From Hormiphora californensis (lineage: Eukaryota > Animalia > Ctenophora): DNA of 64,000 bases. The stretch is taken from the NCBI GenBank assembly GCA_020137815.1, contig CM035361.1, forward strand, positions 2,666,001-2,730,000, read 5' to 3'. A program made the translations under genes and the position numbers. Positions 9,064 through 64,000 of this stretch are shown here, one piece after another. The first letter of the stretch is position 1. Every line of letters begins with the position of its first letter. The notes under the pieces are model-generated. The model was not told the DNA's origin. It searched no databases and worked only from the letters and a program-made list of their open reading frames with translations.

Positions 9064-11023
9064 ACCATCCCCATGCACCACCGGAACGAAAACAAAGATA
9101 GAGAAATGAGAGATATTGTGAGAGAGAGAGGGTCATCGTGTGGCTGGATTCATACGCCTCAAGTTTTATATTAATTTCTACCAATAATTTTAAATAACGT
9201 GCCTTGTCGCGTTCCCGAGCTCCCCCGTTCCTGCCATGTTTAAACCTTTCTTCCCCAATATATATCTCCCTCCCTCTAATGATTAGGAATAGGAAGCTAT
9301 AGACAATGAATTGAACCCCGTGTGAGAGGGAGAGAATGGGAAAGGAAGGTTTCTATCAGGGCAAATCACTGTAAATATATCTATCTCGCCAATCTTGTTC
9401 TTGTGTACAAGGACACTTTAAAGCAGGAGTAAATAGAGCTAATTAACTAATTAATTAATTAATTAATTAGTAATATTCCCCTATTTACTCCTTCATTAAC
9501 ATTGTATTTGTTTCTTTTTATCCACCGACAGTTTGTGCCGAGACTGAATTGTAAATAGCTTATATCACTTTGCATATGTGTATCTGTGTGTGTGCGTGTG
9601 TTATTTGTACTGTGATGATAATATCATTGATATATCATTGATATATTCGTGTGAGACCAGGTTAAATGGAAAACGCAATCAAAGAGGTCATATATACATT
9701 TGGGAGTCAGGACATTTTGAAAGTTTTATTTTTCTACCCAGATCTATTATTAATATTCCAATCACCACGTGTTCATATAATTCAAATGATAAAATAAACT
9801 CTAAAATGGTAGTTTGTGTGTGAGTGTGGTAGTAGCTTAGCAAGGTTTTCTAACACCCTATATATTATTAGTAGCAGCTAGGTGTGTGTGTGAAAAAACG
9901 GAAGAATCTGGATTATCCGAGGTTTTTTGGTATAATATGCGATAAATAAAATATATATACGATAATTGTTAGCATTTGCAATGCGCTCTCATTTGAGGAT
10001 TTTACCACTATAATTCTACCACTTTTACCGATTTGTTTATGGGTCCGATAATATGTCACCTTCTACTATCGTCTATCATGATAGTTGTTAAATGTTCTAA
10101 CCCTTCCTTTACATTTGCGAAAAGAGGGCTAGGCAACTGTTATAGAGTATAGATCGGACCGGTGGTACAGTTTAAGACTCTGCAAATTGGTATATTGCTG
10201 GTAATTATTGTTGCTAACCGAGGACAGGCCTCCCCTAACAAGTTTTTAATTTACAACCAACTTGTCAAGATAGTGAGAGTGAGAGATTGTGGAGATTCGC
10301 ATCTCTACTTTTTCTCATTTTCACTATCTTGTTGAGATAGTGATATATATACGAGTTCTGAAAATTTGGAATTGCTCTCTCGATATGTGTTGAGATTAAG
10401 ATTTTACGGTTTTTTTTGTAGCATTGTAGCAGATAATATCAAAAATCTGAGATTTGTTACAAATTTACCAATATGTTGCCAGGTCAGCGGCCTGTAGATT
10501 CCACCCCCCCCCCCGTGTGTGTGTGATTGAATTGTTCAGATCACATATCCTGAAGAGTTCGCGAAGAAGAAGAATGTATTTTCTCGCCCCTCCCGTGTGT
10601 GTTTTATTTTTATTTGCAAGGCGATTTTAGGTAATTCATGGGAAGCTCGTAGTGCGATGCTCCCAGCAATTCGTATTTGTATTAGTAAAGTCGATAACTA
10701 CATCGGCCCGTTCCAATTGTCCCAGTTTTTGTTACATTTGCTTTGGAGAATTCCTCAAACAGGGTGTTACTTTTCCACAAACTGTGAACAATTGCGGAGG
10801 GTTCAATGTAGTTATCGACTCTACTATATATATGATCGTTCCGACTTTATTTTTTCTTAAAATCTAACCCAATATATATTATGATCATTCTTACACAATA
10901 TGTGGTTCCCATAATAATACTATAGTATAGTTTAGTTGTTTACTAAACTTATTATAGCTGTTTTGCGTACTAGTATTGTTGGATTCGTATCAGAAGTTGT
11001 ATATTTTTATATCCGACACATAT

Positions 11024-11132
11024 TATGAACCGACCGAATCAGGCAATACCGGTCCCTGATTGGCTGATAACCAGTCACGTGATCTAAATAACGAGTTCTG
11101 ATTGGTTGTTTACTTGTTTCGGTCGGTTCCTG
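11024..11132. mobile_element. 109-bp hAT-type MITE (copy 4, left end mutated)
   Basis: Same body; TSD acacatat. Confidence 0.85.
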
Positions 11133-11513
11133 ACACATATTGTAATTGTCCTACTGCAACATATGATCCGAGCCAATATATATCCACATTCAAAGCACCT
11201 TTATAATTCCAAAAAACATGAAGGGTATTCGTTAATTAGGGCAGAGAGAGTGAATTGATTTGATAATAATAGGTTGAATTATAATATTATATGAGCTAAT
11301 ATAAATCTAGTTGGGATACAGATTTAATCTCAATAATAACACAATATCATTTCCCTGCAAAAAAACAGCTTGTTTTATTTGTTCTGTACTGCAGATTTGG
11401 TCGATCCGATCTGGGAATTATAACGGGGTATGGCGACGATAGTCCTGTTTTGGTAAAGCTGTTTTAGTTGAGCCAGTCCAAGTGGGCTGGGGGCACCGTC
11501 CGTGGTGGATGAA

Positions 11514-15360: not shown

Positions 15361-16616
15361 TATATAGTACATAACTCCCTCCCGCGCGGGCATCTATTCA
15401 ATAGACGCACTGCAGAGCAGTGCGTCTATTGAGCTGTAATGCACGGGTCCCGAAGGGACCCGTGCGTTACAGCCCTGTAAATCCCGAGCGTCAGCGAGGG
15501 GTTTACAGGTATATCTGCACGTAAGGGAGGGAGTTGTGTTCTATAGACCCCGCTGGCGGGCACCTAGAAGCAAAACAAGCACAAATTAGGTGGTTGACAC
15601 ACAGAGAGCTCACACAAAACGGGTCAAACAGTTAGAAATGAAGCTACAGAGTGCCTCTCTACATTCCTACACACTCGTAACAATCGTTGTAACAGTTTCA
15701 AAGCGTGGAATGCAGAGAGAGATTACAGTTAATTGTGGGTCATGAGCAACAGTTGCAACAGACTGGCGGGCGCCAAATCTAGGCAGAGAGTGTTGTAGGT
15801 TGTACACACACTCCCTCTTGAGTTACCAAGTCATTTTATCGTGTTTCCAGTGATTCTTTGTGATCTTTACACAAATCTGTCAGAGGGCGTGCGTCTATCG
15901 AGACACAAACTCACGGCAGTGCACGGCCCAATAGACCAGTGCAAATTGTTTGAGCGCGCCGTGCGTCTATTTGAGCCGGCGGGGTCTATATAGTACATAA
16001 CTCCCTCCCGCGCGGGCATCTAATCAATAGACGCACTGCAGAGCAGTGCGTCTATTGAGCTGTAATGCACGGGTCCCGAAGGGACCGTGCATTACAGCCC
16101 TGTAAATCCCGAGCGTCAGCGAGGGGTTTACAGGTATATCTGCACGCAAGGGAGGGAGTTATGTTCTATAGACCCCGCTGGCGGGCACCTAGAAGCAAAA
16201 CAAGCACAAATTAGGTGGTTGACACACAGAGAGCTCACACAAAACGGGTCAAACAGTTGGAAATGAAGCTACAGAGTGCCTCTCTACATTCCTACACACT
16301 CGTAACAATCGTCATAACAGTTTCAAAGGGTGGAATGCAGAGAGAGATTACAGTTAATTGTGGGTCATGAGCAACAGTTGCAACAGACTGGCGGGCGCCA
16401 AATCTAGACAGAGAGCGTTGTAGGTTGTACACACACTCCCTCTTGTGTTACCAAGTCATTTTATCGTGTTTCCAGTGATTCTTTGTGATCTTTACACAAA
16501 TCTGTCAGAGGGCGTGCGTCTATCAAGACACAAACTCACGGCAGTGCACGGCCCAATAGACCAGTGCAAATTGTTTGAGCGCGCCGTGCGTCTATTTGAG
16601 CCAGCGGGGTCTATAT
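15361..16616 (+). mobile_element. Head-to-tail dimer of a ~626-bp non-coding element with A-A'-B-B' inverted-repeat layout (family 1)
   Basis: Two near-identical units joined at TATATA (15987-15992); internal hairpins such as GCACGGGTCC-CGAAG-GGACCCGTGC; flanked only by TATA. Confidence 0.85.
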
Positions 16617-16790
16617 ATATATAATAGGTATGGTATGTTGTATATAATATAATTTACTCCTAGTTTTGTAGCTCTGTGCTACGAGTGAAAAGTCACAAAG
16701 AGATTGGGGGTAAAGTGAAACACTTTGTGCGAAACACTTTGTGCGAGGTAAAATCGGAGCGGAATCTACAATTTCGCTCTTGATTATATT

Positions 16791-17045
16791 CTTTTGGTAC
16801 GTCAGGGTTCCCACGGGAAGGTCTAACTTGATATTCATACCCCCACCCTAACCAAAAACTTGAACCACACCTTTCAAGCTTTGAATTCTCGAGATGATTC
16901 TAGAAGCATTTCTATATAATATAGAAATGCTTCTAGAATCATCTCGAGAATTCAAAGCTTGAAAGGTGTGGTTCAAGGTTTTGGTTAGGGTGGGGTTATG
17001 AATATCAAGTTAGACCTTCCCGTGGGAACCCTGACGTACCAAAAG
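16791..17045. repeat. ~255-bp near-perfect palindrome (foldback MITE)
   Basis: CTTTTGGTACGTCAGGGTTCCC...GGGAACCCTGACGTACCAAAAG, centre ~16918. Confidence 0.9.
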
Positions 17046-17360
17046 ACAGGTTGTGGACAGGTTGAGGACAGGTTGAGGACACATTGAGGACACATTGAGG
17101 ACACATTGAGGACACATTGAGGAACGGTTGCACATCAATCGTGGACACATTGAGGACACATTGAGGACAGGTTGAGGACACATTGTGGACACATTGAGGA
17201 CAGCCTGAGGACACATTGACCTGTCCTCAACCTGTCCACAACCTGTCCACAATGTGTCCTCAACCTGTCCTCAACCTGTCCACAACCTGTCCTCAATGTG
17301 TCCACAATGTGCCCGTAATGTGTCCTCAAACGTTCCGTAGGCAGTATGTCATACTACCCC
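17045..17360. repeat. 11-bp minisatellite (GAGGACACATT/GAGGACAGGTT) that switches orientation at ~17217
   Basis: Direct reading; ends in GTATGTCATACTACCC, similar to the insertion at 51817-51937. Confidence 0.8.
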
Positions 17361-21424: not shown

Positions 21425-23070
21425 GTATCGGTAAAAAGGACGTTTACCCGTATCGTGGCACTATAACACGAATCAGCGTTGCTAATCATCTCGAATCATC
21501 ACCCCGAATCGAGGTCCTCTCTCGATTAGCAGTCTCGTATTCTCGCTACCTAATTGTATCACATAGCGAGAATAATGATACGAAAGAACGTCCTTTTTAC
21601 CACTTGGGAACTGTTGAATGTTTTATCATGTGTGATGGGAATTAGTGAATCGAGATATTAACGACGTAACCGAAGTGAATCATACTGATAAAGGTATGGG
21701 GATAGCGACTCGATTAGTCGTTGGCTCCAATGCAACCTATTCTCGCTCCGCGAAGAATAGGCTCCCGGCCCGTGGACAGCAAGAACTCACGTGCGCGCGA
21801 TGTAAAGCACGTTTTTCAGCAAATCCCGCGCGACAGACTGTTTTGGGAGACCTTTTTAGCTGACCTAGCACTACTCAAACGTCAATTACCGCCTCATTTC
21901 GCATCGTGATGAATCGGCGGGTATTTTCCCATGCTCACAGGGCCATGACGATTCTCCCAGTACCCGCAGATTGTCCCAGGACCGAGTAGGAGCTTGCAGC
22001 CAGGTCTTTAAAGAATTGCCCATGTTTAGAGTCAATTTTGACCCACTACTTCTCAAATGCTGATACTCGCGGGTATTTTCCGTAAAACTAGAGACAATTA
22101 CCTGCCAGGAGCAACAAACGAGATGTAAATCGGTTCAGTAGTTCCTTGCAGCCAGGTCTTTGAAAAAGTTTGCTCTAAAATCAATAACGGGCCGGAGGCC
22201 TAGATGTGAGATCGATCTCGGTCGCTGCGCGACCTCGATCTCACTCAGGCATCAATGTGGCCAAGATTAGTCGTGTATCATCGCCGCTAAGCAACAGCCC
22301 CGATTCGCAATCTTGTCTCCTTACGCATTGAAGAAGAAATAGCTGTATCGGTAAAAAGGACGTTTACCCGTATTGTGGCACTACACGAATCAGTGTTGTT
22401 AATCATCTCGAATCATAACCCCGAACCAAGGTCCTCTCTCGATTAGCAGTCTCGCTAGCTTGCATTATATACCTTACGCATCGAAAGAGAAATAGCTGTA
22501 TCGGTAAAAAGGACGTTTACCCGTATTGTGGCACTACACGAATCAGCGTTGCTAATCATCTCGAATCATCACCCCGAACCAAGGTCCTCTCTCGATTAGC
22601 AGTCTCGCTAGCTTGCATTAGATACCTTACGCATCGAAGGAGAAATAGCTGTATCGGTAAAAAGGACGTTTACTCGTATCGTGGCACTACACGAATCAGT
22701 GTTGCTAATCATCTCGAATCATCACCCCGAACCGAGGTCCTCTCTCGATTAGCAGTCTCGTATTCTCGCTATCTTGTATCACATAGCGAGAAAAATGATA
22801 CGAAAGGATGTCCTTTTTACCTATCAACCCATAAAAGTGCAAATGTTGTCAGTTTTAACACATGATAACACATTCAACAGTCCCCTAGTGGTAAAAAGGA
22901 CGTTCTTTCGTATCATTTTTCTCGGTATTCAATATTACAAGGTAGCGAGAATACGTGACTGCTAATCGAGAGAGGATCCCGGTTCGGGGTGATGATTCGA
23001 GAATCGAGATGATTAGCAACGCTGATTCGTGTAGTGCCACGATACGAGTAAACGTCCTTTTTCCCGTACG
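21425..23070. mobile_element. Composite foldback element with ~200-bp inverted arms and internal 153-bp tandem repeats
   Basis: Left arm ~21425-21632 is inverted at ~22858-23070; the arm module recurs at 22350, 22503 and 22656; module bounded by GGTAAAAAGGACGTT/AACGTCCTTTTTACC. Confidence 0.75.
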
Positions 23071-23076
23071 CTAATT

Positions 23077-27250: not shown

Positions 27251-28701
27251 GCTAGAAGTATATTAGTTTTAGATTGACAGTCCTAGAGCTCTACATATAG
27301 AGCTTCGTGCATTATTGTCCTATATAGAGCTTTGTGCATTGCATCAAAATAATTATCTCGCCGAGAGATCTACCTACTATTGTAACCTATGCCTATATTT
27401 TGAATCGTATAAATTCATGACTGGGCTTGTTGGGGCTCACACTTCCTCAACTTAAGACTGGATAGAAGATCTACTTAAGAATGGTATATAGGGGAGGTTT
27501 TTTTATAAGTTTTTAAATAAAAAAGGAATCAGTCAACTAGGCATATGCCCCGTCATTGGAAGGGATTAAAACCTCATTTTCATCTTTGTTTTGGACTTTG
27601 GATAAAGACTTGATTCTGGAAGCAATGGAAGCAACCGGAATTCCGGAATCAAGTCTTTATCTGATCAGAAACTGGAGATATGATCTAACTACCACTGAGA
27701 CCTGAGATCTCGGGTGATGGCTATTTCAGGGAAGTCTCTAAGAAAAAGCCAACAATAACCCTAAGACCTCAGGTATCAGGGTTAAATAGCCGTGACCTGA
27801 ACCTGAGGTTCAGTCACAACTGTTTTCCCCATATGCTGCTGGGCGTAGATTTTGTTTTGCTAAAACTTGGGCGCGGTTAGGGAGGGTTGAGTAAGACAAA
27901 GCTTTTCTTCTCACTATATCGATATGACGTCTCTTTTTTGTATTTGATTTTGTTACAACTTTATCTCTGTATAGTATTTGATTTTGTTGCAGCTATATTG
28001 CAAGCTCTGCAATATGGTACTTGACTTTTTGTTGAGCCACACAGCTACGCAGAGAACTAATAGGGCCATTAGTCATAGTGCTGCAGCAGTTTCAGCTCTA
28101 TATAATAAACCCACGAACACATATTGTTCACAAGTGGTCGTAAGAGGGTGTTGCGTAATTCATCGAGTTCTCACCTTTTTTGGGTCAAATATTTGAAGCT
28201 TGATGGGCCAGACAATATTATCCGCCTCAATGATCCAAGTTTAGTGGTAATGGGCGGCCTGTTGTGCACAATCATGACCTCATTTGGTAATCACACGTTA
28301 TGCGATGGCCAATATATAACACTGGAAAGTACTCTGAGCGGTGTTGTAGTGTCAGTGTTGTAGGGTGTTGAGATTGATAATCATTCACAGCTGAGACAAC
28401 ATTACGTGATTGATCTTAAGTTTTATGGCCTCTGCAGAGCTCTGAAATCATCGACAGACAAGCTATATAACGTCGTTACCGTTCTGAGTTTGCTACGCTA
28501 GATTTAGATTACAATACATATCTCATACAAACACAATTAATGATATTTTTAGCTTTCGATTTTTCATCATTGAACCATGCAGTACGCTATACAGTTGGCC
28601 ACATTAAGATACCTGAGTGAGATCGACGTCGCGCACGACTGAGATCGATCTCACATATAGCGAGAATAGGTTGCAATGGAGCCAAGCTATATGTAATAGC
28701 C

Positions 28702-29374
28702 TATATAGTACATAACGTTCTGCACGCAGTGCAAGCGCGCCATATACGCTCTGCACTGCAGAGCGTATATGGAGGTGAAATGCACGACAGCGCAGCTGGA
28801 GTGCATTTCACACCTATATTGCACGAGTGAAACGAGTGCGATATAGGAGCGATTGCACATACCGTGCAGGACGTTATTGAGTATATATTCCGCGAGAAAA
28901 CACATGACAAGCAAAACAATCATAATTTTGGGTGATTACACACAGAGAGATGTGACAAAACAAGGCACAAACTAAGCAAAAACACACAAAAAGATACTAT
29001 GAGACACTACTACACCGGTTACACACAAGGGAGACAAGGTCTGATAGTTTGAAACAGTCAAAAGAAGAGAGAGATAAAGAGAGAGATGCGAGAGAGGGAG
29101 ATTGGAATTCTTGGAAATAGCAAACAACAAAACGTGACAAGGGGATAATTAGTGAGAGAAAGAGGGAGAGTGAGTGTAATTTGACAGACTTTGTGTCGTG
29201 TAGTACCTTGTCAGTCATATTCTGTGTGTTTGTGTGTGAATAAGGTGTAAAAACACTTTTCTCACTTATATCCCGCTACCTCTATATCTGCACGCTCCCG
29301 CGGAAGCACAGTGCATATTTCAGCGTGCAAATGGTCGCGCACAGCGGGAGTGATATGTGCACTCGCGGTATATA
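28702..29374 (+). mobile_element. ~675-bp non-coding element with A-A'-B-B' layout (family 2, copy 1)
   Basis: Starts TATATAGTACATAACGTTCTGCACG, ends CTCGCGGTATATA; homologous copy at 62988-63666. Confidence 0.85.
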
Positions 29375-29626
29375 TATATCCTAAGACACACAGCTCACAG
29401 CTCACGATTGCATAATGGCAATATCATGGGATATTATTATACAACTCTCACATGGATAGGAGCTGATAGAATGCCGTATATTGCGGTTCATCTTTAAAAT
29501 GATATTGTACCTTGCTTGGGTATACGTTGTCTTGCTTTCATGATGATGGGTGCGTGTCGAACCCAAACACATATATGATCATCACATCAACCCACCTGAT
29601 CTTTATAACCTCCCACATATATCAAC

Positions 29627-29731
29627 CCACTGAATCAAGGTATTATACTGGTCCCTGATTGGCTGATAACCAGTCACGTGACCTAAATAACGAATTCCAA
29701 TTGGTTGTTTACTTGATTCGGTCGGTTCCTG
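29627..29731. mobile_element. hAT-type MITE, degenerate left end (copy 5)
   Basis: Body and right TIR match the family; atatcaac on both flanks. Confidence 0.75.
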
Positions 29732-29948
29732 ATATCAACCCAACCCCTTTATAACACATTTGTATGGACCACACTGGATAATGTGGATTCAGTGTATTTT
29801 AATGGGGCTAGCACCTTGTATTGTTGGTGATTGAAACATATACAGAGGATGGTCATTGCTGATATATTTATCATTGTACAAGAGCTAAGAATTATGGATT
29901 ATGTCAGCATCAACTACTCATGTAGTAAATAACATGTTGGAATACTCC

Positions 29949-30288: not shown

Positions 30289-32212
30289 GAGATTAAATCC
30301 CCTTATCTCTTAGAAAATCCTAGCTTAAATCCCTTTATCTCTTAGAAAGTCCTAGCTTAAATCCCAGCTTATCCCTTAGAAAGTCCTAGCTTAAATCCCA
30401 GCTTATCCCTTAGAAAGTCCTAGCTTAAATCCCTTTATCTCTTAGAAAGTCCTAGCTTAAATCCCAGCTTATCCCTTAGAAAGTCCTAGCTTAAATCCCC
30501 TTATCTCTTAGAAAGTCCTAGCTTAAATCCCCTTATCTCTTAGAAAGTCCTAGATTAAATCCCCTTATCTCTTAGAAAATCCTAGCTTAAATCCCTTTAT
30601 CTCTTAGAAAGTCCTAGCTTAAATCCCCTTATCCCTTAGAAAGTCCTAGCTTAAATCCCCTTATCTCTTAGAAAGTCCTTGCTTAAATCCCCTTTATCTC
30701 TTAGAAAGTCCTAGATTAAATCCCCTTATCTCTTAGAAAGTCCTATATTAAATCCCCTTATCTCTTAGAAAGTCCTAGATTAAATCCCCTTATCTCTTAG
30801 AAAGCCCTATATTAAATCCCCTTATCTCTTAGAAAGTCCTAACTTAAGTCCCATTATCTCTTAGAAAGTCCTAGCTTAAATCCCTTATCTCTTAGAAAGC
30901 CCTAGCTTAAATCCCCTTATCTCTTAGAAAGTCCTAGTTTAAATCCCTTATCTCTTAGAAAGTCCTAGCTTAAATCCCCTTATCTCTTCGAAAGTCCTTG
31001 CTTAAATCCCCATATCTCTTAGAAAGTCGTAGCTTAAATCCTTTATCTCTTAGAAAGTCCTAGCTTAAATCCCCTTATCTCTTAGAAAGTCCTAGCTTAA
31101 ATCCCCTTATCTCATAGAAAGTCGTAGCTTAAATCCCCTTATCTCTTAGAAAGTCCTAGCTTAAATCCCCTTATCTATTAGAAAGTCCTAGCTTAAATCC
31201 CCTTATCTCTTAGAAAGTCCTAGCTCAAATCCCCTTATCCCTTAGAAAGTCCTAGCTCAAATCCCCTTATCTCTTAGAAAGTCCTAGCTTAAATCCCCTT
31301 ATCTATTAGAAAGTCATAGCTAAAATCCCTTATCTCTTAGAAAGTCCTAGCTCAAATCCCCTTATCTCTTAGAAAGTCCTAGCTTAAATTCCCTTATCTC
31401 TTAGAAAGTCCTAGCATAAATTCCTTATCTCTTAGAAACTCCACGCCTAAATCCCCTTATCTCTTACAAAGTCCTAGCTTAAATCCCTTATCTCCTAGAA
31501 AGTCCTAGCTTAAATCCCTTTATCTCTTAGAAAGTCCTAGTTTAAATCCCTTTTCTCTTAGAAAGTCCTAGCTTAAATCCCCTTATCTCTTAGAAAGTCC
31601 TAGCTTAAATCCCCTTATCTCTAGAAAGTCCTAGCTTAAATCCCCTTATCTCTTAGAAAGTCCTAGCTTAAATCCCCTTATCTCTTAGAAAGTCCTAGCT
31701 TAAATCCCTTATCTCTTAGAAAGTCCTAGCTTAAATCCCCTTATCTCTTAGAAAGTCCTAGCTTAAATCCCCTTATCCCTTAGAAAGTCCTAGCTCAAAT
31801 CCCCTTATCTCTTAGAAAGTCCTAGCTTAAATCCCCTTATCTCTTAGAAAGTCCTAGCTTAAATTCCCCTTATCTCTTAGAAAGTCCTAGCTTAAATCCC
31901 TTATCTCTTAGAAAGTCCTAGCTTAAATCCCTTATCTCTTAGAAAGTCCTAGCTTAAATCCCCTTATCTCTTAGAAAGTCCTAGCTTAAATCCCCTTATC
32001 TCTTAGAAAGTCCTAGCTTAAATCTCCTTATCTCTTAGAAAGTCCTAGCTTAAATCCCCTTATCTCTTAGAAAGTCCTAGCTTAAATCCCCTTATCTCTT
32101 AGAAAGTCCTAGCTTAAATCCCTTATCTCTTAGAAAGTCCTAGCTTAAATCCCCTTATCTCTTAGAAAGTCCTAGCTTAAATCCCCTTATCTCTTAGAAA
32201 GTTCCTAGCTTA
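30289..32212. repeat. Tandem satellite, 32-bp unit CTTAAATCCCCTTATCTCTTAGAAAGTCCTAG, about 60 copies
   Basis: Direct reading; contiguous units, no unique spacers. Confidence 0.97.
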
Positions 32213-33362
32213 ATATCTAACAATTCCCTAGCAATGTCATATATAATACAGCAGCTCTAATTTAATTTGATACAATATGTCTTCGTGAGGCTTGGACTCC
32301 TGTGAAATGTAGGGATGACGATAGTTGGTCAGTTTGAGATTGACAATGATAGGCTGGAAAATCTGAGACGCAAATTATTGGAATATCGTCTAGAGTACCA
32401 ACGAAAACTCCGGGTAAGGATACACATTTTTCTTTTTCTTCTTTTTCGTTATTAAGGAGGAAAACAGTTGTGCCTGAACCTGAAAGGATGTTCTATTCAG
32501 TATAATGCAAACCTCAGGTCAAGATCATGCAGGTATTATTTTGACTATTAGAGACCTGAGGTTTCAGGGTTCAGTGCATGCCGACACCTGAAACTGCGGT
32601 TTAAAAACAAATATTTTCCCATAATTTGAACTGTATAATTCCCCTTGTAAATTAGTAAAAACGACACTCGTTTAAAGTTCATATAAAAAATAATTAATTA
32701 ACACTACCCCCAGGAATTAATTTCTTCCACTACCCCCAGGAATTAATTTCTTCCACTATACCCCCAGGAAAAGGAAGCAGGTAGGATGGGTATTGAATTA
32801 TCAACTACATCAGCTGTGTTGACCTGTAGTACTGGACACAGTGTTGACTCAACCGCATCAGGCAGTCAAACAGGTAAATTGGTGGGGGGGGGGGAAATAG
32901 TCAAGCGCCCGAGACTTCAGGTTCAGGTCATGGCTATAATTTACCAGCTGAGACTATAATACTATTAAGTATAATACTATGTACTAAGTATATAATATAA
33001 TTCTTGGCTATTCTTGGCTATTTCCTGAAATCTCAAGGAAAAGCCGCGCCGTCACGTTACCATGCGATCTCATGTCTCATTTCTTGGGTCCATTACTTGT
33101 TCGTCTGCACAATTTGAAAGATTCATTTTCTTTTCAGGGGAGGAATCCGGTCCCTTCATCAAGTATGGAGATGATTCATTTAATGAACGGATTTTACCAA
33201 AATTACCAACTACTAAGGTATTTTTATTTTGTTAAAAGTAGTATTGTTGTAGTTTAATAATTTATTGTTTCTAGAGAAAATATTTTGATTATTTGTTAGC
33301 TACTAATTATATCCAGGGAGTGTGGTTGAGTATTCTATGGAAAGAGAGAGCGAGAGAGAGAT

Positions 33363-37492: not shown

Positions 37493-38163
37493 CCTGCTCA
37501 TTTCCTATGATCCGTCCATTTGTCGTCCGTTAATACTTAACGTTCATCTCCGTTCATTTTCAACTGTATAATTGGATCAGCTAGGTCTCAGCTCCTCCTT
37601 CATTTAACGCGATAGTTTCATCTGTGTGAAGAATTTTGTACATTTAGCAAATGTGAAATTATGGTAAATGTCATTTACCATAATTTCACAATTTGAATCT
37701 TGCTCAGATCTCATATTCAGAATAATTTCGCAATTGTTGCACAATTATTTCGAAATAATTGCAGCATTAACTAAGCTACTCCCCGCGGCAATATATATTC
37801 TTCTAGACTAGCATGTACATTTTGTAATTATTGTACTTGGACCGGACAGTCTACAATTTGTCGAGCTATTAAAGAGGCTATAACGGGTCCCACTAATATA
37901 ATGTCTCTATAAGCTACCATTATATGTACTTAGTCCGCATCTTTTTCACTTTTGACATCGCCCCTTCTGTCAATTCATTGATTCAGTACCACTTTATATC
38001 GTTGTTTATCTTGTCAATGGCCCTTTTTTTGCTCATTGATCATGATGAACATTTAGTTTCACCAATCTTATCAAAACAAACCAAATAAATCTTTATAACT
38101 ACAGCTATCCTTATTTTACAAGTTAAAACAAGCTAATCTAATAACTTCTACAATGCAGCCAGT

Positions 38164-41100
38164 ATGATGGAACAAGCCCCAATGAGCCCCGGAGCAGAGG
38201 AATTCTTTCGAGCCAACGACGCCCGATTTAACGCTCTCATCACTGAGCACCGGAAATTCCAAGAAAAACGGAAACTCCTCCTCCGCTCTCCGGGATTTTC
38301 ATCTGAGAACGTCCCTCCCGCCGTTAGGAGGTGTCTACCCCGGACCCCACCACCATTCTTTGGTAACCATGGTAACCGAACCCGGGCGCCACATCTCTCC
38401 GACGGTCCCCAGCTGGGATCTCTCCCCGAGTCGGGTGAAATATACCTTGACCACAATGTGGCGATTGTCAACAGATCACAGTCACTGTTGGAGAAACCGA
38501 GGTTATTGGATCTGGCGAATGGGTCCGCTCATCACCAACGACCTAGTTCCTTACCCCTAGTTACCTCTCCGCTGCTTGGCAACCCAGATAGAATTCAACG
38601 AAGTGTTTCTGTTGAGGTCCTAAATGAAGAAGAACGAGTATCCCGGAAACCGTCATCTCCGTTGAGGCACGCTATAAGTCTCCGGGAAAGTCGGAGTCAG
38701 TTTTGGGTCAACTTGGGTAGCTACAAACGGAAGGCAGAATACGACAGTCAAATGGCTCAACAACAGTGCTATCAGGCGACCCTCGCTCAGATGATTGCCC
38801 CTGCCTATCGGTCCGAGGGGACAACGGTTGCTATGGTGAAAACTGTTGCTATGCCAACTAGTGATACAATTCTCACTGCGGAGAACAGGCCGACATTAGC
38901 TGTGGAGCCGGTTCAAACTAGCGAGGGTCTTCATCAAAAAGAGGGTCTTTATCTGTGGCCTGGATATGATGGTGAACCGACACAGGAGGGAGAAAGTCAC
39001 AGTCCATTTGACCCAACAATGTATGAAATGCTAAACAAACTGGTGGAACCTATTCAAGATCAACAATCTAGGACATTACTCGAACAATCGTCGGTAAAGA
39101 ATTCCAGTCATCGCGATGAATCTGAAGATCCCTTCATGAGACTTACTTTCCAATGGGGATATGCCGACACAACCAGAAACGGAAGCTCCGCGGTTGTCAT
39201 GGGACCAAAAAAACTCGAATGATTCACCGACCACTCCAAAGATAGCACCAATTAACTCAACCGTTCCCGAAAGTATATCCCCGCTACAACTTCTAATGGA
39301 ATCTGCCTTGCACCTTGAAAAACCGGAGATAACCGATGAAATCACAAATGAAGGGCCCCGTTTCCAAGGTCAGGATGAAGTTTCAGCCGCCAAAGAAATT
39401 CCAAAAATTCTGGAAATGTGCAGATCTCCGTCGTTGGATCTAAGTTTAGGCCGCCAACAAAGTTTCTCTGACTCCACTACCCAGCAGATTGACAGTACCC
39501 GCGGGGAGCAGGACACCAAATCACCCCCTCCATTCCAGCTACCGTCTACAATAATTGGTCCAATGTCACCTACAAACGGTCCAATGTCACCACCAACCGG
39601 GGGTCCAATATCACCTACAACCGGTCCAATGTCATCTACAATTAGGGGCCCAATGTCATCTACAGCCGGTCCAACACTAATAACACCAATGTCACCTACA
39701 TCAATATCATCTAGCCGTCTCTCTGCCCCCGTTACCCTTCCCCCAGGCTCACCCCGGCCCCGTCTGATGCGCCAGAAAACTGTGAATGTAGACGACGCTC
39801 CGGATGATCCACCGAATTCTGAGTTCAATGTGTGCACGGAGACCTTTGAGTTACCAGCCTTCGTTGTCGAGGTAGAGGAGGAGGAGGAGGAGGTTTGGGA
39901 GGGGAAGTTGGTACATTTTAATAGGGAGATTCAGTTTTTGTCTGACTCCGGGGGGAGCAGTGAGGAAGATGTTGGTGGCGAGTTTGAGGGATCTGGAACT
40001 TGCTGTGAGGTGTGTGAACAATAAATGTGCTAATGGACATTGAACCAAAAACCGTTATATATGTGTTCTTTTGCCTCATATGTTACCTTCTGCTCAAACA
40101 CGCTAGATATATCAACTCTGCCAGGTATCCCGCTAGGCTGACCCTTTCTATCGTTTGCAGAGCAGGGAGAGTGGTCAGGCATATCGCACCATGCACTTAT
40201 GTATGCCGCAGCTAGCTAGAATGACAAAACTATAAGTAATGTGGGTGTGTGCTATGATTGTCTGGATGTGATCTGGAAACACATTCAGACACTATATAAA
40301 GTGTGCTATCAGCAACTATGATCACACTATCGCTCGAGAAGCTATAAAGCCAGAAAGCAACAACCAAAACCGGGGCATGAGTTTGAAACTTAAATTATTA
40401 TATGTGTCTACTTGAATTGCTAAACTTCATTCAAAAACTCGGAAAATAATTGCTGCGTTGTATACAACATACACTCATCACTGATCGCTATACTCACGTT
40501 AAATTGGTTAGCTCACGGCCTCCTTTTATTTGTACCGCCGGAGATCTCCTGGAGACGTCTCCAGGAGATCTCCGGAGGTGCAAGGGAGGCCGTAATCGAT
40601 ATACTTATACATCATTTTTTACATCATTTTCTACAATTTCAGTTGGACGACGGGACGTGTAAAAGCAGGCGACAAAGACTACGAGACAAGTCATGGAGGA
40701 AAATGGTGTTTGATTCCCAGGATCAGACTAATATGGCGGCTTCTGGAGGAGGAGCTAATCAGGAGATCAAGATTCCACAAAAGATTCCACCCGTCTGCAG
40801 ACTTAATCTTGAAGGTTTGTGGGAAATTGGGAGTTCGGTTAAAGTCTTGAAGGTTTGCGGGAAATTGGGAGGTAAAGGTTTTAGAAATGTTGGATTCGTA
40901 AGCACTATAAATTCACTTTAGTTTCCGATCCCTAAACCACTTTGAGATCCCTAAACCACTTTGAGATCCCTAAACCATGCTTTGAGATCCCTAAACCACT
41001 TTGAGATTCCCAGTGAACTATATTAACTCCCTAAACAACCCTTCTCTCTCTCCCAGAGTGCGAGAGAACAACGTCATCCTCTACCACAGCCACCACTCCC

Positions 41101-44100
41101 TCTTCTGCCATCAGTACCTCAGCAAGGGAGGAGGATTGTGCTGAGGATGATTTCTTTTTCTCTGCCGCAACATCAAGCTTTGAAAATGGTAAATTTTACT
41201 TTTTTAGATTTATAACTTTTGAAAACTTCAATGTTGTGGTTAAAATGTGTGTAAAATTCAAATCAAAGATATTAAAATGATTTTTCAAATCATAACAATT
41301 AAAAGTAGTAATTCTTCCTTATTTAGAGGAAAATCCGTTGCCATCGCCAACAACAAAGGACCAACTGGCAGGACTAGCTCGTCCACCATTACAGCGAACA
41401 TCCTCCGAGGAAAGCGCACCACTTGCACTTAGGTTTGTTATGTTTCAACCAGGAACCGACCGAATCAGGAAATACTGGTCCCTGATTGGCTGATAACCAG
41501 TCACGTGACCTAAATAACGAGTTCTGATTGGTTGTTTACTTGTGTTGGTCGGTTCCTGGTTTCAACCCTCCTTTACCTGGGGCGCGGTGAGAGAGTTTAG
41601 ATAACCACTTACACTTAGGTTATGGGGGAAAACAGGGTGTGCTATTTTTTCAAATGCCTAATTTAATTCAAAATTTCACTTGGTATCGGGTTAAATGAGC
41701 TCCTACGATCATTCTAAAACATTTTATCACAAAGTTTTGGCTCTACCATGGCCCAATTACGTTGGCACGAGCTATGCCCATATATGGGCATATTCATTTC
41801 AAAAAGTCTGTTTTAGGGCGTGATTTCGAACAAAACACATATATAAATCGTCTCGTGACAACTTATACAACTGTTACTTTCAGTTTGAGTCTTAAGATAT
41901 CCACTTTATGAACAAAAATAAAAATTTTTCTCCCTTTTTTTTTTGCTAATTTTACCAACTTGCAGAATCGTGGGGACGAATTTTAATTTTTTTTAGTTTT
42001 TTCTTGGTGGAAAGCAAATTTCGGTTGTAATCGACTAATTTTGGCCTGCGGAACACGATCCCGTTCATGAAAAAGCTCTCAAAATTTAAGAACATGTCCA
42101 AAATGAACATTTTTTGTCAAAAATGAACATTTTTTGTCAAAAATGAACATTTTTAGCTCAAAAATGAACTTTAGCATCATTTAATGATGCATATCAATTC
42201 TTGTCAGTTTCGAGGTGCTGAACACGATCCTAAACATAAAAAGTTGATATCAAGAACATGTCAAAAACTGGTGAAAACCACACATATTTCCCTGTTTTTA
42301 CCATTTTTCGGTTAAAAACTACACTTTTTAAATCGCGATGCCAACGTAACTGACAAACACTATCTCGATTCTGTTTTGCTGATGTGATAGAGAATTGTCC
42401 ATAGTTTCACATTAGCTAGATACTGAATGGCCTAGTCGAAAAAAATTTGAAATAGCACACCCTACTGAGATCTCAGGGTTCAGAGATAGCTATTCCCTGA
42501 AATCTCAGGGACATTTTCAGGGAATAGCCAAGGATTTCAGGGGTAAATAATTACTAAATAGCCGTGACCAGAGGTTCAGTCACGAGTCGTGACTCACGAC
42601 TGTTCCCCCCCCATAGTGCGAAACGCCCCACGTGTCTAAGCCTATATGTTTAGGCTCTTTGGTCAAGTTTACAATTTGTGTACGCTAGAAATATTTCAAT
42701 TCCAGGAAATTGGAAATCGGGCCACTTAAAAAACGAGGAGAAGAGGAGAAGAAATGTTCAAAAAAGAACCGTCGTCAGGCTTTTAATCTTCCCCGGATTA
42801 GTACAGACTCCGTCGACGATTATCAGCGGCCAAAACGAACTTTAGGTATTACAGTAAACTAGTATTTCAGTTTAGGTTAGATTGAGTTGATTATACTTTA
42901 TTTTTTATAAAGCGAGGGCATATTGTCAGGCGACTCAAAGGTAAAAAAGCACGGCTGAAATGTGAGTTTTAATTCTGGTTTTTCAGAAAGGTTAAATAAT
43001 TCCCGGCAATCCAATGGTCACCAGGGGCAACAACAATCGGTGAAAAAGAAGAAAATAAAGAAAAGGAAAAACACATCGATTTATTTAGGTAAAGCAACCA
43101 TTAAGTTGTTAGGTACAGCTGTGAAACACTCACGCCCTACGGGAAAAAACCTTTTTCGAATATCTGCCTCGCAGAATATCAATTGGGTATTACTAAGAAC
43201 TAAGAAATAAAATAAATAAATAATAATAAAATATAAATAATTAAATATTTCCCCTGTTAGGATCCCACAAAGTAACGATTGAATCTCCGACCTCCTCTGA
43301 CGACACCTCGACAGAAAGTGAGGACGCCAACCCCAACCTCACAAGTTCGGCAGTGTCTGGATCTGAGGATGGTTTAGTATCTGCTAAATCGAGTCTTAGC
43401 GAGGCTGATGAACATCAGAAACATAGGATTAACATTCCTTCCCCTAATGAATGGTAGGATCAACTTTTCAGCAAACGTTTGTTCGGCCCCCGTGCATAAT
43501 TGTTGAATTTTGGGGAAATTGAACAACGAACATCTCCCGTACAAAAAACTTTTGATAAGAAATAGAAAGAGATGCTGTCCCCAAATTAACTGGAAGAATT
43601 ATGGTTATCTTAATTGCCCCCTCATACTAATTCGTTCCCGGTTCCAGGTTGACAGACAATGAGGGATACTATGAAGATCTAATACCAGCCACACCCCGGA
43701 TTGGTATCTGTACACCCGCATCAGATGACAGTGTTCTTATTAATACCAGGTATAATAACCATTAACCCGGGGTGGTTGGGGTAGATGGGGTACTGGGGTG
43801 GATGGAGTGGGGTGCGGTGGGAGGAGTGGGGCGGGGTGGGTAGGGTGGAGGTAGTTGGGGTGGGTGGGAGAGCGAGATGATAGTGTTCTTATCAACACTA
43901 GGTATAATAACTCGGAGTGGGGTGGGTGGGGTAGATGGGGTGGGGATGGGCCGATGGCCCGATGGGGGTGGGGTGGGTGATTGGGGGAGGGAGATGATAG
44001 TGTTCTAATCAACAGTCTGGGGTAGTTTGGGGTTGTGCTCACAATTGTATTTTTCATTGCAGCTCTGTTTCAGGTCTCACGATGAAGCAATGTCCCCGGA

Positions 44101-47100
44101 CTCAAATCTGATCGATTCAAGGAAATTTCGCTCGGATGGCGACATCTATGTAAGCAAAACGAAAAACTTATCCAGGGTTGGGGAGGCGGTTGGGGGCGGG
44201 TGGGGGCGGGTGGGGGACTCATAAAGACCACGTGAATTTAATTGATGTCCTTGGTATTAGGCTGTCCAGTATTGATTGTCGTTGGGCTTTTATGAGACAA
44301 TGGTTTGAGATAAAGCAAAATGGACTTCACCACCGTTTTTCTCACGCGATTTTAGATCGGAATATCATGCTTGGTATCGGTATGTGGCCGTTCTCGGTTC
44401 CCAGCAGGCTATTTTCTCTACCCCACTCCTGTTGCCGCTGCATTTGGAAAATCGCGATTTTCGAGTTTTAGTACTAAAGCTGCTGTACTTCTTAAAAATG
44501 TTACCGGAGTGATGTTTTTTTGCATCAAGCTTGTTCATTGGACAATTACCTACTGTTCAAGATGTAATAAAACATCCTATCTTTATTTTGTCACTGAGCA
44601 ATGGGCCTCCAAAAAGTTTTGGTAAAAATTAGAAATTTTCACTTCCGGGTCTCATCAGGATTGGCTTATAATAAAAAACTTTGCAGTAAAAAGTAGTTCT
44701 AAGTAAGTTCTAAGACGTAGTGAAGCCAATTATGTGATTGGTTGACTTTTGAAGTGACCAATTGACGTTTTTGAACATGTCCCCAAAACGGGCCAAACTT
44801 TTTCGCTTTTTCGTGTTACATTTACTGTTTCAGATGTTATTAGTGAACGCGTAAAGACCCAAATCGCATACATACCTCATCCTTAGACGATTTTCAATCG
44901 ATTGAGCACTATAACGGGAGCTAAAGAAACTGTACCAGTTTTCTTCCAGCAGCGTTTAAAAAACATTGGTAACCCCATGCAGCGGCAACAAGAGTGGCGT
45001 AGAGAAAATAGCCTGCTGGGAACCGAGAACGGCCACATACCGATACCAAGCATGATATTCCGATCTAAAATCGCGTGAGAAAAACGGTGGTGAAGTCCAT
45101 TTTGCTCTATCTCAAACCATTGTCTCATAAAAGCCCAACGACAATCAATACTGGACAGCCTAATATAACAGGAAACGAGGGGTTCAACACTGTGCCTCCT
45201 TGAAAAAAATCTCGAATTCTTCTCTATGATGGCGTAACATTCTTATTTAATTTTCAGCAAAGTCAGTTGATAGAGACGAATAGGCAGAATGTTAAAATGA
45301 CTATTATAGAGTTGTTCGAAACGGAACGGAATTACATCTCAAATCTTCTAACGATCATCGATGTAAGTGATAATCTCCCTTTCGGACTTTCGGTAATCCG
45401 TATAAGTTTTCTGATTTCCTTTAGTTTTACCAGAATTTCTACTGTTTTATTTGATTTGTTTGAGCTAATACTCATCACTGCCTACAGGTATTTGCCCGAC
45501 CTATAAATGATCTCGGGTTGTTATCTCGGAAAGTCCACGGAGCTCTATTTCCCTCGTATATCCTCCACTTGATACACCGTCACTCGATATTTCTGGGGAA
45601 GTTAGAGGAGAGGATCTATAACTGGCATTTTGTACAAAAAATAGGGGATCTGTTTGCTGGTAGGTTCATGATATTGTGTTTCCTTGTTTTTTTTGTTCTA
45701 GTTTTGGCCAAAACTAAATTTGGTGGGTAAAAACCTAGTTATCAACGGCATGTCACTCCGTTACAAAATTAATTCCACTATTTCAGTCTTCAAAGAAGAG
45801 AACAGAGATGGCCTATTCCGTGTTTACTTATCCTACATAACCCACTTTCCCCACATGTTCGACCGGCTTACAAAGGTATTTATTGTAATGCTTTGTTCAG
45901 TCCTGTCTCACCACGCCCACATAAATTATATTGTAGCATTTCTTTCACAAAATATATGGGGCACATGGTGAAAGAGGATCTCTCGAGGTGTTAACGTCAT
46001 GCTTTGTTTTGCGCACTTTGCATTTTATTTGCATTTTATTCGCATAGCGTACGTCATGCTTTGACTCTTATTTTTCGTGCGTGACCCAGCAATAATATAA
46101 TATAGATAACCCCACTGTGTGTCGGGATGAAATTTGATATACCAGCCTATTAGGCTGGTATATCGTTCAGTTATTCCACTGCTCGCGGAGCGAGCAGGGA
46201 ATAACTGCTGATATTCCCGCAGCCGAGATTGGAGATTGGAGATTTAGAGAAATGCTTTGTTTTGCTCATATATTGCATTTTATTTGCATTTTATTTGCAT
46301 AGCGTACGTCATGCTTTGATTCTTCTTTTTCGTGCGTGACCCAGCAATAATAATGTTCTAACCCACCTTTATATTTGTAAAAGAGGGCGGGGGCTAGGGA
46401 GTGAGGGTCGTGCGTGACCCAAACTCCAGAGCTATAAAAATAGAAAAGTGACCCCCCAACGTCACCAAGTGTAAATGCTGTTGCATTTTAATGTGATAGA
46501 TGCAAATAACGGTCGAGGGGCATAGAAAATTTACTTGACTCCCGTTGCTATAACGAGAACAAGAATAAATGCATTATGTTTCATAATGCTATGTTTCCCC
46601 GCCAATCTTTCATTTCTAACACGAAGGCGGGACAGACATTTCGGATCATTTATAAATCAAGCAAACAGTATAGAACAAATCCTTGTGTTTTAGTAGCACT
46701 AAATTGCGCGCCACATTGCGGAATTGTGTGGCACACAATTCCTGAAAACGTGTCAATGAAGTGGTTTATGAAGGAGCAGGTTGTTGTTGTGTGCGCGGCT
46801 CTAGTTGCTACATGTTCCCCCTCGCAACCTGAAACGGGACAAGAGAGCTGACTTGCTACACATAGTCACTATATCCGTTTAGATTTCTAAACCCCTATGC
46901 CTTTTTGCAAAAGGCATCCGGGTGAAGGCCTTCGGCCTTCACCCGGGCGGGGAAAAAATAAAAGCGATATGAGACTACCTACCCGAGTCTCAATATTCCC
47001 CCTTTTTATTTTACTAATTTCTTTCAGGCCATGGCTTCCAATGAGCGGTTTCGTCAGTACGTGCAGAAATGTCGGAAGGAAGAGAGAGCGTGTCAGCGGC

Positions 47101-55148: not shown

Positions 55149-56326
55149 CCTTAGCTCTCTCATTCTATATCGCTTACATCTTATCCATTTTCAGTCCTCA
55201 AACTTAGAGAACGGTTATATTTGCCGACCTTTGTATAATTGTGAGTTTGTAGCAGGAACCGACCGAAACAAGTAAACAACCAATCAGAACTCGTTATTTA
55301 GGTCACGTGACTGGTTATGAGCCAATCAGGGACCAGTATTTCCTGATTCGGTCGGTTCCTGGTTTGTAGTGAATTCTCTGGAAGTCTTTCAGCTACCAAT
55401 GATCAGACCACGGTTCTTTTGCGCTTAGGCCAATGCTCTGACAGCAGGAAGTAGAACCATATGATGAACTACTTATTATAGCAGTAGTCGGTTTTGGTAG
55501 ATATTATAGTGGTGTGCGTTTCGCCATATCAAGAGATAATGTACGTCTAACGGTCCATACCGGCTGCCCCTAATGTTATATGATCTCTGCTCTCGGTTTC
55601 AGCATTCTGCCGGTTTCAACTGAATTGGTAAATTTGGGCTTTTGTGCCACTCATGGGGCCATAATTGATATGGCGGGCTCGAGACTATTATACTCCTATT
55701 TCGTTGCCTTGCGAATAGAGCACATAAAAACACCTGTGATTGAGTGTGAATATACTGTAGATGTTTTCTTGAAAGGAAAAACGAACATTCTAGGTCTCAT
55801 CTTTCAGCTCCATTATACAGTTGTATTATAATTCGGCCAGTATGGCATATGACGCTATAGATCGTTGGTACATTGCCGTTGACTGGTGTGGAGAAGACTA
55901 GAGAGAGCCGCATCGTTAGGTAATCAAAATCTCTCTATAGTTAATGTAACAATCTTTCTTATGCTCTCTGTTAGTGAACGTCTCACTTTCTACTTTTTAG
56001 TCGTGGATTTAATAGTAACAGTGGCTTTATAATAACCCCAACGATGTCATTGTTGATACTTTGATGTGTTCTTTTATACTTGGTTGGACGTTGGTTATAA
56101 ATTGAACCCATTCTATCAGTTGCCAAACTATTATGTTAGAAGAATAAAAGAATAAAATTAATCATAAACATTTTGTATATCTATGCTTATGTATATGCTA
56201 AAGTAAACTCTGGAATTTGTTAGCTGTACTTGGGTTATACCATGAACTAGTTGAGAGTTGCTGCAGATGCACTGATGTACTGTTTTAGTATTTCATGTTC
56301 TAGACAACATCGTATAGCTCTATCAG

Positions 56327-62987: not shown

Positions 62988-63666
62988 TATATAGTACATA
63001 ACGTTCTGCACGCAGTGCAAGCGCGCCATATACGCTCTGCACTGCAGAGCGTATATGGAGGTGAAATGCACGACAGCGCAGCTGGAGTGCATTTCACACC
63101 TATATTGCACGAGTGTAACGAGTGCGATATAGGAACGCTTGCACATGCCGTGCAGGACGTTATTGAGTATATATTCCGCGAGAAAGCACATGACAAGCAA
63201 AACAATCATAATTTTGGGTGATTACACACAGAGAGATGTGACAAAACAAGGTACAAACTAAGCAAAACTACACAAAAATACACTTCTACACCTGTTACAC
63301 ACAAGGGAACTCGTTCTGTTAGTTTTAATTAGTGAATAGAAGAGAGGGATAAAGAGAGAGATACGAGAGAGGGAGATTGGAATTCTTGGAAATAGTGAAC
63401 AACAAAACATGATAAGGGGATAATTAGTGAGAGAAAGAGGGAGAGTGAGTGTAATTTGACAGACTTTGTGTCGCTTGGCACTAACTGTGTCAGTCATATT
63501 CTGTGTGTTTGTGTGTGAATAAGGTGTAAAAACACTGAGGGGACACTGTTCTTACTTATATCCCGCTACCCCTATATCTGCACGCTCCCGCGGAAGCAGA
63601 GTGCATATTTCAGCGTGCAAATGGTCGCGCACAGCGGGAGTGATATGTGCACTCGCGGTATATATA
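62988..63666 (+). mobile_element. A-A'-B-B' element family 2, copy 2
   Basis: Homologous to 28702-29374 from TATATAGTACATAAC to CTCGCGGTATATA, with unrelated flanks. Confidence 0.85.
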
Positions 63667-64000
63667 TGATGATCTTTAGTGAAGTACCATAATGAACCCA
63701 GTTATAACTGTGAGATAAGCATGGTCACTTGTTATAAATGCACTCTTCATGTGTTTACAATCTATATCATTGCTACTTTACATCACCCCCCCCCTCCAAG
63801 CTTGGAGTAATCCCACTAACAAGCAAACCGGTTTCCATGGGAATTCACGATAATGTATAAAGCACTTATTTCTCCATTCAATCATTGCATAAAATTAGAA
63901 TTCCCTCTGCAGCAGCCATCAGCTTCCTTAATTTTTACTCTCTAATTGCATTTCAATCTTCGGAATTTATAAAGGTAGATTTCCTCCTTTTCCTTTTTAA

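What the first reader, a model, noticed from the sequence alone, without database searches (positions are those of the whole stretch)
28702..29374. Second, internally dissimilar family with the same A-A'-TATA-B-B' layout, same 5' terminus and same ~180-bp spacing
Seen: two dispersed copies (28702-29374, 62988-63666) begin TATATAGTACATAAC exactly as family 1 does. The 5' end pairs with CGTGCAGGACGTTATTGAGTATATA (ending ~28887), which overlaps TATATATTCCGCGAG, and this pairs with the 3' end CTCGCGGTATATA. The internal TATA lies ~180 bp from the left end in both families (15361 to 15542; 28702 to 28882) although the interiors look unalike. Inference: conserved geometry implies a shared mechanism and a superfamily of such elements.
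Basis: partly seen in the sequence, partly recalled or inferred. Interest (0 to 1): 0.8.

Follow-up and report, generated by a model that had tools for sequence, protein, structure and literature searches.

The report
Self-folding single-strand jumping DNA elements
These repeats are gene-less mobile elements, in three related subfamilies of what is likely a marine animal, in which one DNA strand is predicted to fold so that both ends meet an internal mirror copy of their own joint, which likely lets a recombinase from a partner element (not yet found) move them as single-stranded circles, much as the cholera phage CTX integrates.

Summary
The layout is real. Seven copies (four in the window, three in marine metagenome contigs) keep A-A'-TATA-B...B' with 178-179 bp spacing. 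The elements are mobile and non-coding: one sample has an empty site, and head-to-tail joints recur. The internal site is an inverted copy of the joint the two ends make, with fixed mismatches on one side. The left 180 nt fold into a four-way junction (20 of 72 pairs changed on both sides), capped by DNA-type mini-hairpins on the + strand only, with a YGCAC motif repeated in both ends. Best reading (0.55): non-autonomous, Crypton-like elements that move as folded single-stranded circles through one tyrosine-recombinase strand exchange at ATAT, like CTXphi attP or integron attC. The enzyme is inferred; no partner was found here. Unchecked AI notes from other genomes link the same layout to a recombinase. 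My ten paper searches found no description of this layout in recombinase-only eukaryotic elements.

The parts
28702..29378 (+). F2a, whole element with its flanking TATATA runs (core 28708-29372; unit 671 bp)
   Evidence: empty site skips 671 and head-to-tail joint goes back 671
28708..28739 (+). A: 5' strand of the closing stem; right half of the predicted circle joint
28740..28772 (+). arm 1 of the four-way junction, 15 bp perfect stem, 3-nt loop
28774..28812 (+). arm 2, tandem G.A mismatch, capped by a GCGNAGC DNA mini-hairpin
   Evidence: motif defined in PMC13037366
28813..28847 (+). arm 3, T.G wobble, tandem G.A mismatch, GNA loop
28848..28896 (+). internal mirror of the end joint: A' (28848-28881), TATA (28882-28885), B (28886-28896)
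28909..28972 (+). A-rich interior block shared by F1 and F2, absent from the third subfamily; role not shown
29282..29361 (+). right subterminal domain with a cluster of YGCAC motifs; no conserved fold found
29362..29378 (+). B' (29362-29372) and terminal TATATA; left half of the predicted circle joint
62988..63668 (+). F2b, second F2 copy (89-91% identical to F2a), inner TATA at 63168
15361..15992 (+). F1a, related family, first copy of a head-to-tail pair, inner TATA at 15542
15987..16617 (+). F1b, second copy of the pair; shares TATATA (15987-15992) with F1a; inner TATA at 16167

Best explanation
These are non-coding mobile elements whose + strand likely folds as single-stranded DNA, so that the joined ends pair with an internal mirror copy and form a double-stranded attachment site that a tyrosine recombinase from a Crypton-like partner is predicted to use. 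Shown: mobility (empty site, dispersed copies, tandem joints), the geometry, the conserved fold, the strand bias, an ATAT-containing target, no coding capacity. Inferred steps: (1) When the + strand is single-stranded (replication fork, or displacement from a tandem pair), the inner A'-TATA-B splints both ends together. (2) One strand exchange releases a single-stranded circle with the joint B'-TATATA-A, leaving the donor on the other strand (copy-out). (3) The folded joint recombines one strand with chromosomal ATAT; the fully paired B side would be the reactive side, while the bulged, mismatched A side would block the second exchange. (4) Replication resolves the branch. The new right end offers ATAT again, so tandems form. 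The cloverleaf likely serves as a protein-loading site (YGCAC at about the same distance from the branch point in the arms) or as an origin for second-strand synthesis. Odds: folded single-stranded DNA intermediate about 0.8; tyrosine-recombinase-only partner given that, about 0.7.
For: Mobility: a contig in run X6, at single-copy-like depth, joins 28704 to 29376, skipping 671 bp. Head-to-tail joints with the same 671-bp unit occur in 3 of 4 runs, in L002 and, for F1, in the window. Each has TATATA between the homologous ends, while the inner mirror has TATA. Target: 6 of 6 independent left flanks end in ATATA and 4 of 4 right flanks start TATAT, some with C or G directly beyond. Mirror: rc(inner site) matches the joint, B-B' has 4 pairs changed on both sides between F1 and F2, and the A-side mismatches are the same in all F2-type copies compared (4 of 4) and in both F1 copies. 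Fold: 20 of 72 pairs changed on both sides, 96% of cells paired, slid controls 19-52%. Strand and molecule: + strand more stable in 7 of 7 left domains. Within the arms checked (5 copies, 14 of 15 arms), internal mismatches are tandem G.A, T.G and one T.T, never A.C. GCG(N1-2)AGC lies in the left domain on + in 7 of 7 copies and on - in 0 of 7; background is 15 in 61 kb x 2 strands. This motif is a DNA mini-hairpin, far less stable as RNA and found at single-strand phage origins (PMC13037366 passages). YGCAC occurs 10-15 times per element, almost only in the two ends, against 1.9 per kb elsewhere. The same ends enclose a different, longer interior in L002-L004, so the ends carry the function. 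No strand-flip joint at the TATA sites is listed. CTXphi has the same anatomy: two inverted sites folding into a stem with hairpins between them, one strand exchange, unpaired overlap, tandem copies (PMC3442271 passages).
Against: No recombinase was found. Pfam gave no YR, HUH, RT or DDE hit in 211 window ORFs or 117 short ORFs of the elements and loci, and no genome was available. The YR link rests on analogy and unchecked AI notes. The arms flanking the joint are not inverted repeats of each other, unlike classic YR core sites. Nineteen of the 20 double changes come from one comparison (F1 against F2 types), and local hairpins can be homogenised by template switching without selection. Contigs cannot tell a tandem from a free circle. 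In organism B two bases of F1's B stem differ (16171, 16173); partner changes in B' are not among the 40 rows shown (4 hidden, low cover at the end), so that stem may be weaker there. The empty allele differs elsewhere (11 other letters, 22 gaps), so TA slippage could blur the count. The sequence cannot separate a 4-bp ATAT crossover from a 2-bp TA duplication.
Confidence: 0.55

Rival explanations
1. Same folded single-stranded circle, but cut and joined by an HUH (Y1/Rep) transposase, as in IS200/IS605 peel-and-paste, Helitron2/Helentron or Replitrons.
For: HUH enzymes act on single-stranded DNA and read hairpins (PMC10288648 passages). A 4-nt target on one side repeated at the element's end fits the flanks as well. 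Tandems fit rolling-circle copying.
Against: None of the HUH groups in the passages read has an internal mirror of the end joint. Helentron/Helitron2 features were not met: no 5' end repeated in inverse near the 3' end, no local 3' hairpin, target not TT. Replitrons were reported from plants, algae and protists (abstract).
Confidence: 0.17
2. Non-autonomous DIRS-type retroelement: RNA from the - strand is reverse transcribed into + strand cDNA, the inner site acts as the ICR, and a DIRS tyrosine recombinase integrates the circle.
For: ICR geometry is the same, and on the - strand the site lies near the 3' end as in DIRS-1. DIRS-1 makes single-stranded antisense cDNA and needs its ICR (PMC7192593 passages), which would also explain DNA-type hairpins on one strand.
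Against: A DIRS ICR templates the ends and is exactly complementary; here the mismatches and the extra TA are fixed across copies and subfamilies. No inverted terminal repeats (3-6 of 25 terminal bases match). The joint is TATATA, not a 3-bp NTT.
Confidence: 0.13
3. Ordinary double-stranded mobility: a classic Crypton circle, or two abutting MITEs (A-A' and B-B') with TA duplications; the hairpins would be by-products of palindrome correction.
For: The unit length equals core plus TA-TA ends plus a TA duplication. Subterminal motif clusters are common in cut-and-paste elements (recalled). Cryptons have 4-6 bp direct repeats.
Against: It does not explain + strand-only mini-hairpins, conserved tandem G.A pairs or fixed mismatches. 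All 7 left domains continue into B, including 3 of 3 found with a pattern that did not ask for B. No loose ends at the inner TATA among the rows shown (24 of 518; 20 of 246). No flip joints at the two inverted sites, which double-strand recombination would make.
Confidence: 0.1

Closest known systems
CTXphi / RS1 attP(+) integration by XerC/D in Vibrio cholerae (PMC3442271, passages read)
   Same: Two inverted copies of the attachment site close together, hairpins between them, folding of one strand into a double-stranded site, unpaired bases on one side of the overlap, tandem copies.
   Different: Eukaryotic host, no genes, three hairpins instead of two, dispersed ATAT targets instead of dif; the enzyme here is inferred.
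Integron attC cassettes (PMC2727003, abstract read)
   Same: Strand-selected folded DNA site with conserved unpaired bases; mobile unit without its own enzyme.
   Different: attC is one local stem-loop; here the site is built from both element ends plus an internal mirror, and insertions are dispersed.
Crypton DNA transposons and their non-autonomous derivatives (PMC3212892, passages and supplement 1 read; PMC13465315, passages read)
   Same: Short direct repeats at the ends, no terminal inverted repeats, proposed circle, abundant 350-700 bp non-autonomous families in animals.
   Different: No internal mirror, cloverleaf or single-strand step appears in the passages read; animal Cryptons were reported without terminal repeats; no recombinase gene is linked here.
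DIRS-1-like retrotransposons with ICR (PMC7192593, PMC3266345, passages read)
   Same: Internal region complementary to both ends, overlapping at a short junction near one end; single-stranded DNA intermediate.
   Different: No inverted terminal repeats, no ORFs, a 4/6-base junction, and fixed mismatches instead of exact complementarity.
Helitron2 / Helentron / DINE-1 non-autonomous elements (PMC4067079, PMC3627910, passages read)
   Same: Non-coding, 5' hairpin, microsatellite-rich interior, single-strand logic, tandems.
   Different: No asymmetric terminal inverted repeat pair, no local 3' stem-loop, ATAT rather than TT target, and an internal joint mirror.

Membership tests
Crypton | Tyrosine recombinase as only enzyme, in the element or its autonomous partner | not testable with these tools
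   Copies are non-coding; no host genome held; no partner reached
Crypton | 4-6 bp terminal direct repeats matching the target | tested here: met
   ATAT on both sides and once in the empty site; a 2-bp TA duplication gives the same letters
Crypton | No terminal inverted repeats | tested here: met
   3-6 of 25 terminal bases match in inverse; 35-78 of 300 shuffles score as high
Crypton | Extrachromosomal circle | tested here: inconclusive
   End-to-start joints exist, but contigs cannot separate tandem from circle
DIRS-1-like | Internal region complementary to both ends | tested here: met
   geometry met, but with fixed mismatches
DIRS-1-like | Inverted terminal repeats | tested here: not met
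   only a 14-bp subterminal match in F1
DIRS-1-like | 3-bp NTT circular junction | tested here: not met
   TATA inside, TATATA at joints; definition
DIRS-1-like | RNA intermediate and RT/RH/YR/MT genes | tested here: inconclusive
   No ORFs; RNA contigs cannot show strand or level
Helitron2/Helentron (HINE) | 5' hairpin | tested here: met
   A-A' stem, though 180 nt and four-way
Helitron2/Helentron (HINE) | Asymmetric/subterminal inverted repeat pair and local 3' stem-loop | tested here: not met
Helitron2/Helentron (HINE) | Insertion at TT | tested here: not met
   flanks are ATAT-centred
MITE (DDE, TA duplication) | Terminal inverted repeats on the mobile unit | tested here: not met
   halves were not seen alone
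CTXphi-type folded att site (works like) | Two inverted copies of the site, one strand folds, mismatch on one side of the overlap | tested here: met
   (sequence and predicted fold only)
CTXphi-type folded att site (works like) | Single strand exchange by a tyrosine recombinase, resolved by replication | not testable with these tools
   needs the enzyme and an assay

The most novel reading that the evidence does not exclude
Animals harbour a class of tyrosine-recombinase DNA transposons that move as folded single-stranded circles, the eukaryotic counterpart of CTXphi and integron cassettes. These gene-less copies reduce that machinery to a splinted attachment site plus a four-armed DNA cloverleaf, which mimics a Holliday junction to load the recombinase or primes the second strand. 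This would supply a mechanism for at least part of the Crypton group, for which only a tentative model is in print.
Probability: 0.5. Interest if true: 0.85.

Novelty: new variant of a known kind. Interest (0 to 1): 0.7.

Why it matters
How Cryptons move has only a tentative double-stranded-circle model. These 630-900 bp elements define, base by base, a testable single-strand substrate: joint, mirror, fixed mismatches, target and binding motif. If right, folded-DNA recombination, so far a bacterial and phage strategy in the papers read, also operates in animal genomes. The layout also gives a structural signature for classifying abundant 'unknown' repeats, and the system is a copy-in integrase route that needs no double-strand break.

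Tried and rejected
No host genome was held, and L002-L004 lie in no searchable record. Viral contigs: 4 scans gave one hit, L001, an AT-rich chance match with no fold, and otherwise none. Prokaryote genomes: one hit, L005, also chance. Phage records: no match to the left domain. Rfam: only a miRNA model at E 0.36, far below cut-off; a structured RNA or retrozyme reading was dropped because the loops are DNA-type and no ribozyme matched. The covariance model found no further family in the window or loci. RNA: a possible RNA run of organism A held next to none of the F2 words, and one marine RNA run gave two F1 contigs at depth 4-6; neither counts as evidence. A 2-micron-type Flp/FRT amplification model and parvovirus-type flip/flop hairpins were considered; no flip joint at the TATA sites was listed, and one strand-change joint (15991 to 16101, depth 4, below flank depth) was set aside as rare or artefactual. 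Protelomerase sites were rejected because the joint is not a palindrome. Gapped global identities of the interiors were not used, because unrelated interiors score as high. Summed contig depth over the elements is hundreds to over a thousand times the flank depth, but the tool states this is no copy number, so only 'high copy' is claimed. Look-ups by sequence and place in earlier findings returned nothing.

Full report
Observation. The two flagged copies (F2a 28702-29378, F2b 62988-63668) and the family-1 pair (F1a 15361-15992, F1b 15987-16617) all begin TATATAGTACATAAC. A sequence-blind scan for 'end pairs with a site 100-400 nt on, before a TATA' found only these four copies and nothing in 6 shuffled windows. 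The distance between the first and the inner TATA is 178 bp in 6 of 7 copies and 179 bp in one. The claim of unlike interiors is not: F1 and F2 align throughout, and their interiors share a 65-nt block that no shuffle of 300 matched.

Host and spread. The window has microsatellites, many repeats and two RhoGEF exon fragments below Pfam's cut-off, which suggests an animal. Runs holding F2 are labelled organism A, organism B or marine/aquatic metagenomes (20 of 24 rows). No genome was held and I did not identify the taxon. Both families are high-copy in A and B. One metagenome scan gave three further copies, L002-L004. Their left ends are 95% and right ends 88% identical to F2, but the interior is about 590 nt, GA-rich and without the F1/F2 block. 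So the ends are the conserved unit and the interior can be exchanged.

Mobility and target. A contig of run X6 joins the two flanks of F2a and skips 671 bp. The same 671-bp unit appears as an end-to-start joint in 3 of the 4 runs laid and in L002; F1 forms such a pair in the window. When homologous ends are aligned, every joint has TATATA between them. All 6 independent left flanks end in ATATA and all 4 right flanks begin TATAT, in some cases with C or G directly beyond. The target core is thus ATAT. The letters fit a 4-bp crossover with a TATATA circle joint or a 2-bp TA duplication equally well. No Pfam transposase, recombinase or RT domain was found in the elements, the loci or the window.

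The internal mirror. The reverse complement of A'-TATA-B matches the joint B'-TATATA-A. The B side is paired up to the TATA (15 of 15 bp in F1 counting one G.T in F1a, one T.T in F2), with 4 pairs changed on both sides between the families across 450 nt. The A side is not: F1 has a 2-base bulge and a T.T mismatch, F2 types a larger internal loop, the same in all four F2-type copies compared. An ICR that templates the ends each cycle, as in DIRS-1, would erase such differences (PMC7192593 and PMC3266345, passages). Fixed one-sided mismatches are what CTXphi attP(+) and integron attC use to allow one strand exchange and block the second (PMC3442271 passages; PMC2727003 abstract).

The cloverleaf. 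Between A and A' lie three abutting hairpins of 15-18 bp, making a four-way junction. Of 72 consensus pairs, 20 changed on both sides, and slid controls drop from 96% to 19-52% paired. Nineteen of the 20 come from the single F1-versus-F2 contrast, so this is one deep comparison, not many events. The fold is strand-specific. The + strand is more stable in 7 of 7 copies, and internal mismatches in the 14 arms checked are tandem G.A, T.G or T.T (arm 2 of F1b was left out because of a 1-base deletion). The loops are of DNA type: the mini-hairpin GCG(N1-2)AGC caps arm 3 in F1 and arm 2 in F2 types, on + in 7 of 7 and on - in 0 of 7 left domains, against 15 occurrences in the rest of the window. Other loops are GAA or GTA, and in organism B arm 1 of F1 reads GGA (16040 A>G). 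Such hairpins are far less stable as RNA and occur at single-strand phage origins (PMC13037366 passages). In the right domain this motif occurs on both strands in F2 types, so it gives no strand signal there. YGCAC occurs 10-15 times per element, almost all in the two ends (background 1.9 per kb), and in most arms sits about 8-12 bp from the branch point. The rest of the B-B' loop shows no conserved fold.

Mechanism. The simplest account is a folded + strand. The mirror splints the two ends, one strand exchange frees or integrates a single-stranded circle at ATAT, and replication completes the event; each insertion leaves a fresh ATAT at its right end, so tandems arise. This is the CTXphi layout with three hairpins instead of two. 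Double-strand recombination between the two inverted sites would flip the left domain; no such joint at the TATA sites was listed, though contigs show presence better than absence. The enzyme is not shown. I favour a Crypton-type tyrosine recombinase because short direct repeats, lack of terminal inverted repeats and abundant non-autonomous derivatives are Crypton traits. Four unchecked AI notes from other eukaryote genomes also describe the same hairpin-plus-mirror layout in elements with a Cre-like recombinase gene or its remains; they are leads I could not test. HUH and DIRS partners remain possible.

Results against this reading. No partner was found. The arms beside the joint are not inverted repeats. 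In organism B two bases of F1's B stem differ, and no partner change is visible in the 40 rows shown. The empty allele carries other differences, so TA slippage is possible. Tandem joints do not prove free circles.

Novelty. Ten full-text searches found no paper describing an internal joint mirror or a folded single-strand step in recombinase-only or non-autonomous eukaryotic DNA elements; most hits were seen as listings and abstract starts only. Repbase entries, subscription journals and bioRxiv supplements were not searchable and may hold such elements. Verdict: a real, mobile, structurally constrained family; a new variant of tyrosine-recombinase-type elements with a likely single-strand mechanism; interest 0.7.

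Noticed in passing
window 1068-1193, 3903-4013, 4421-4535, 11003-11144, 29599-29742, 41447-41561, 50919-51027, 55242-55366: Eight copies of a 110-120 bp repeat, 86-98% identical, in both orientations, with CCAAT boxes around a CACGTG core; MITE-like.
   Followed up: no
window 7723-9063 and 16790-17046: Near-perfect long palindromes (1342 bp at 98.8%; 257 bp at 98%, TA-rich centre, 170 bp right of F1b).
   Followed up: no
window 28595-28685 (inverted pieces at 22200-22264, 21721-21747): A separate high-copy short repeat directly left of F2a; very deep in 4 of 4 runs.
   Followed up: no
window 28904-28988 and 29076 onward, run X11 record 13: A 966-nt contig of organism B matches F2 in two pieces with unknown letters between; possibly a longer family member. 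Its sequence could not be fetched.
   Followed up: partly
window 16392-16607: In run X6 the right part of F1 has 2-3 times the summed depth of the left part, hinting at subfamilies that share only the right part.
   Followed up: no
window 30293-32213: Satellite of 60 copies of a 32-bp unit.
   Followed up: no
window 45464-47258 and 38137-40024: RhoGEF exon fragments (Pfam E about 0.001, below cut-off) and two long low-complexity ORFs upstream, perhaps one host gene.
   Followed up: partly
window 15361, 28702, 62988: All three insertion loci lie in the same orientation; too few to test a replication-strand bias.
   Followed up: no
window 22319-23076: 153-bp tandem repeat with an inverted copy running up to the 100-N gap.
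   Followed up: no
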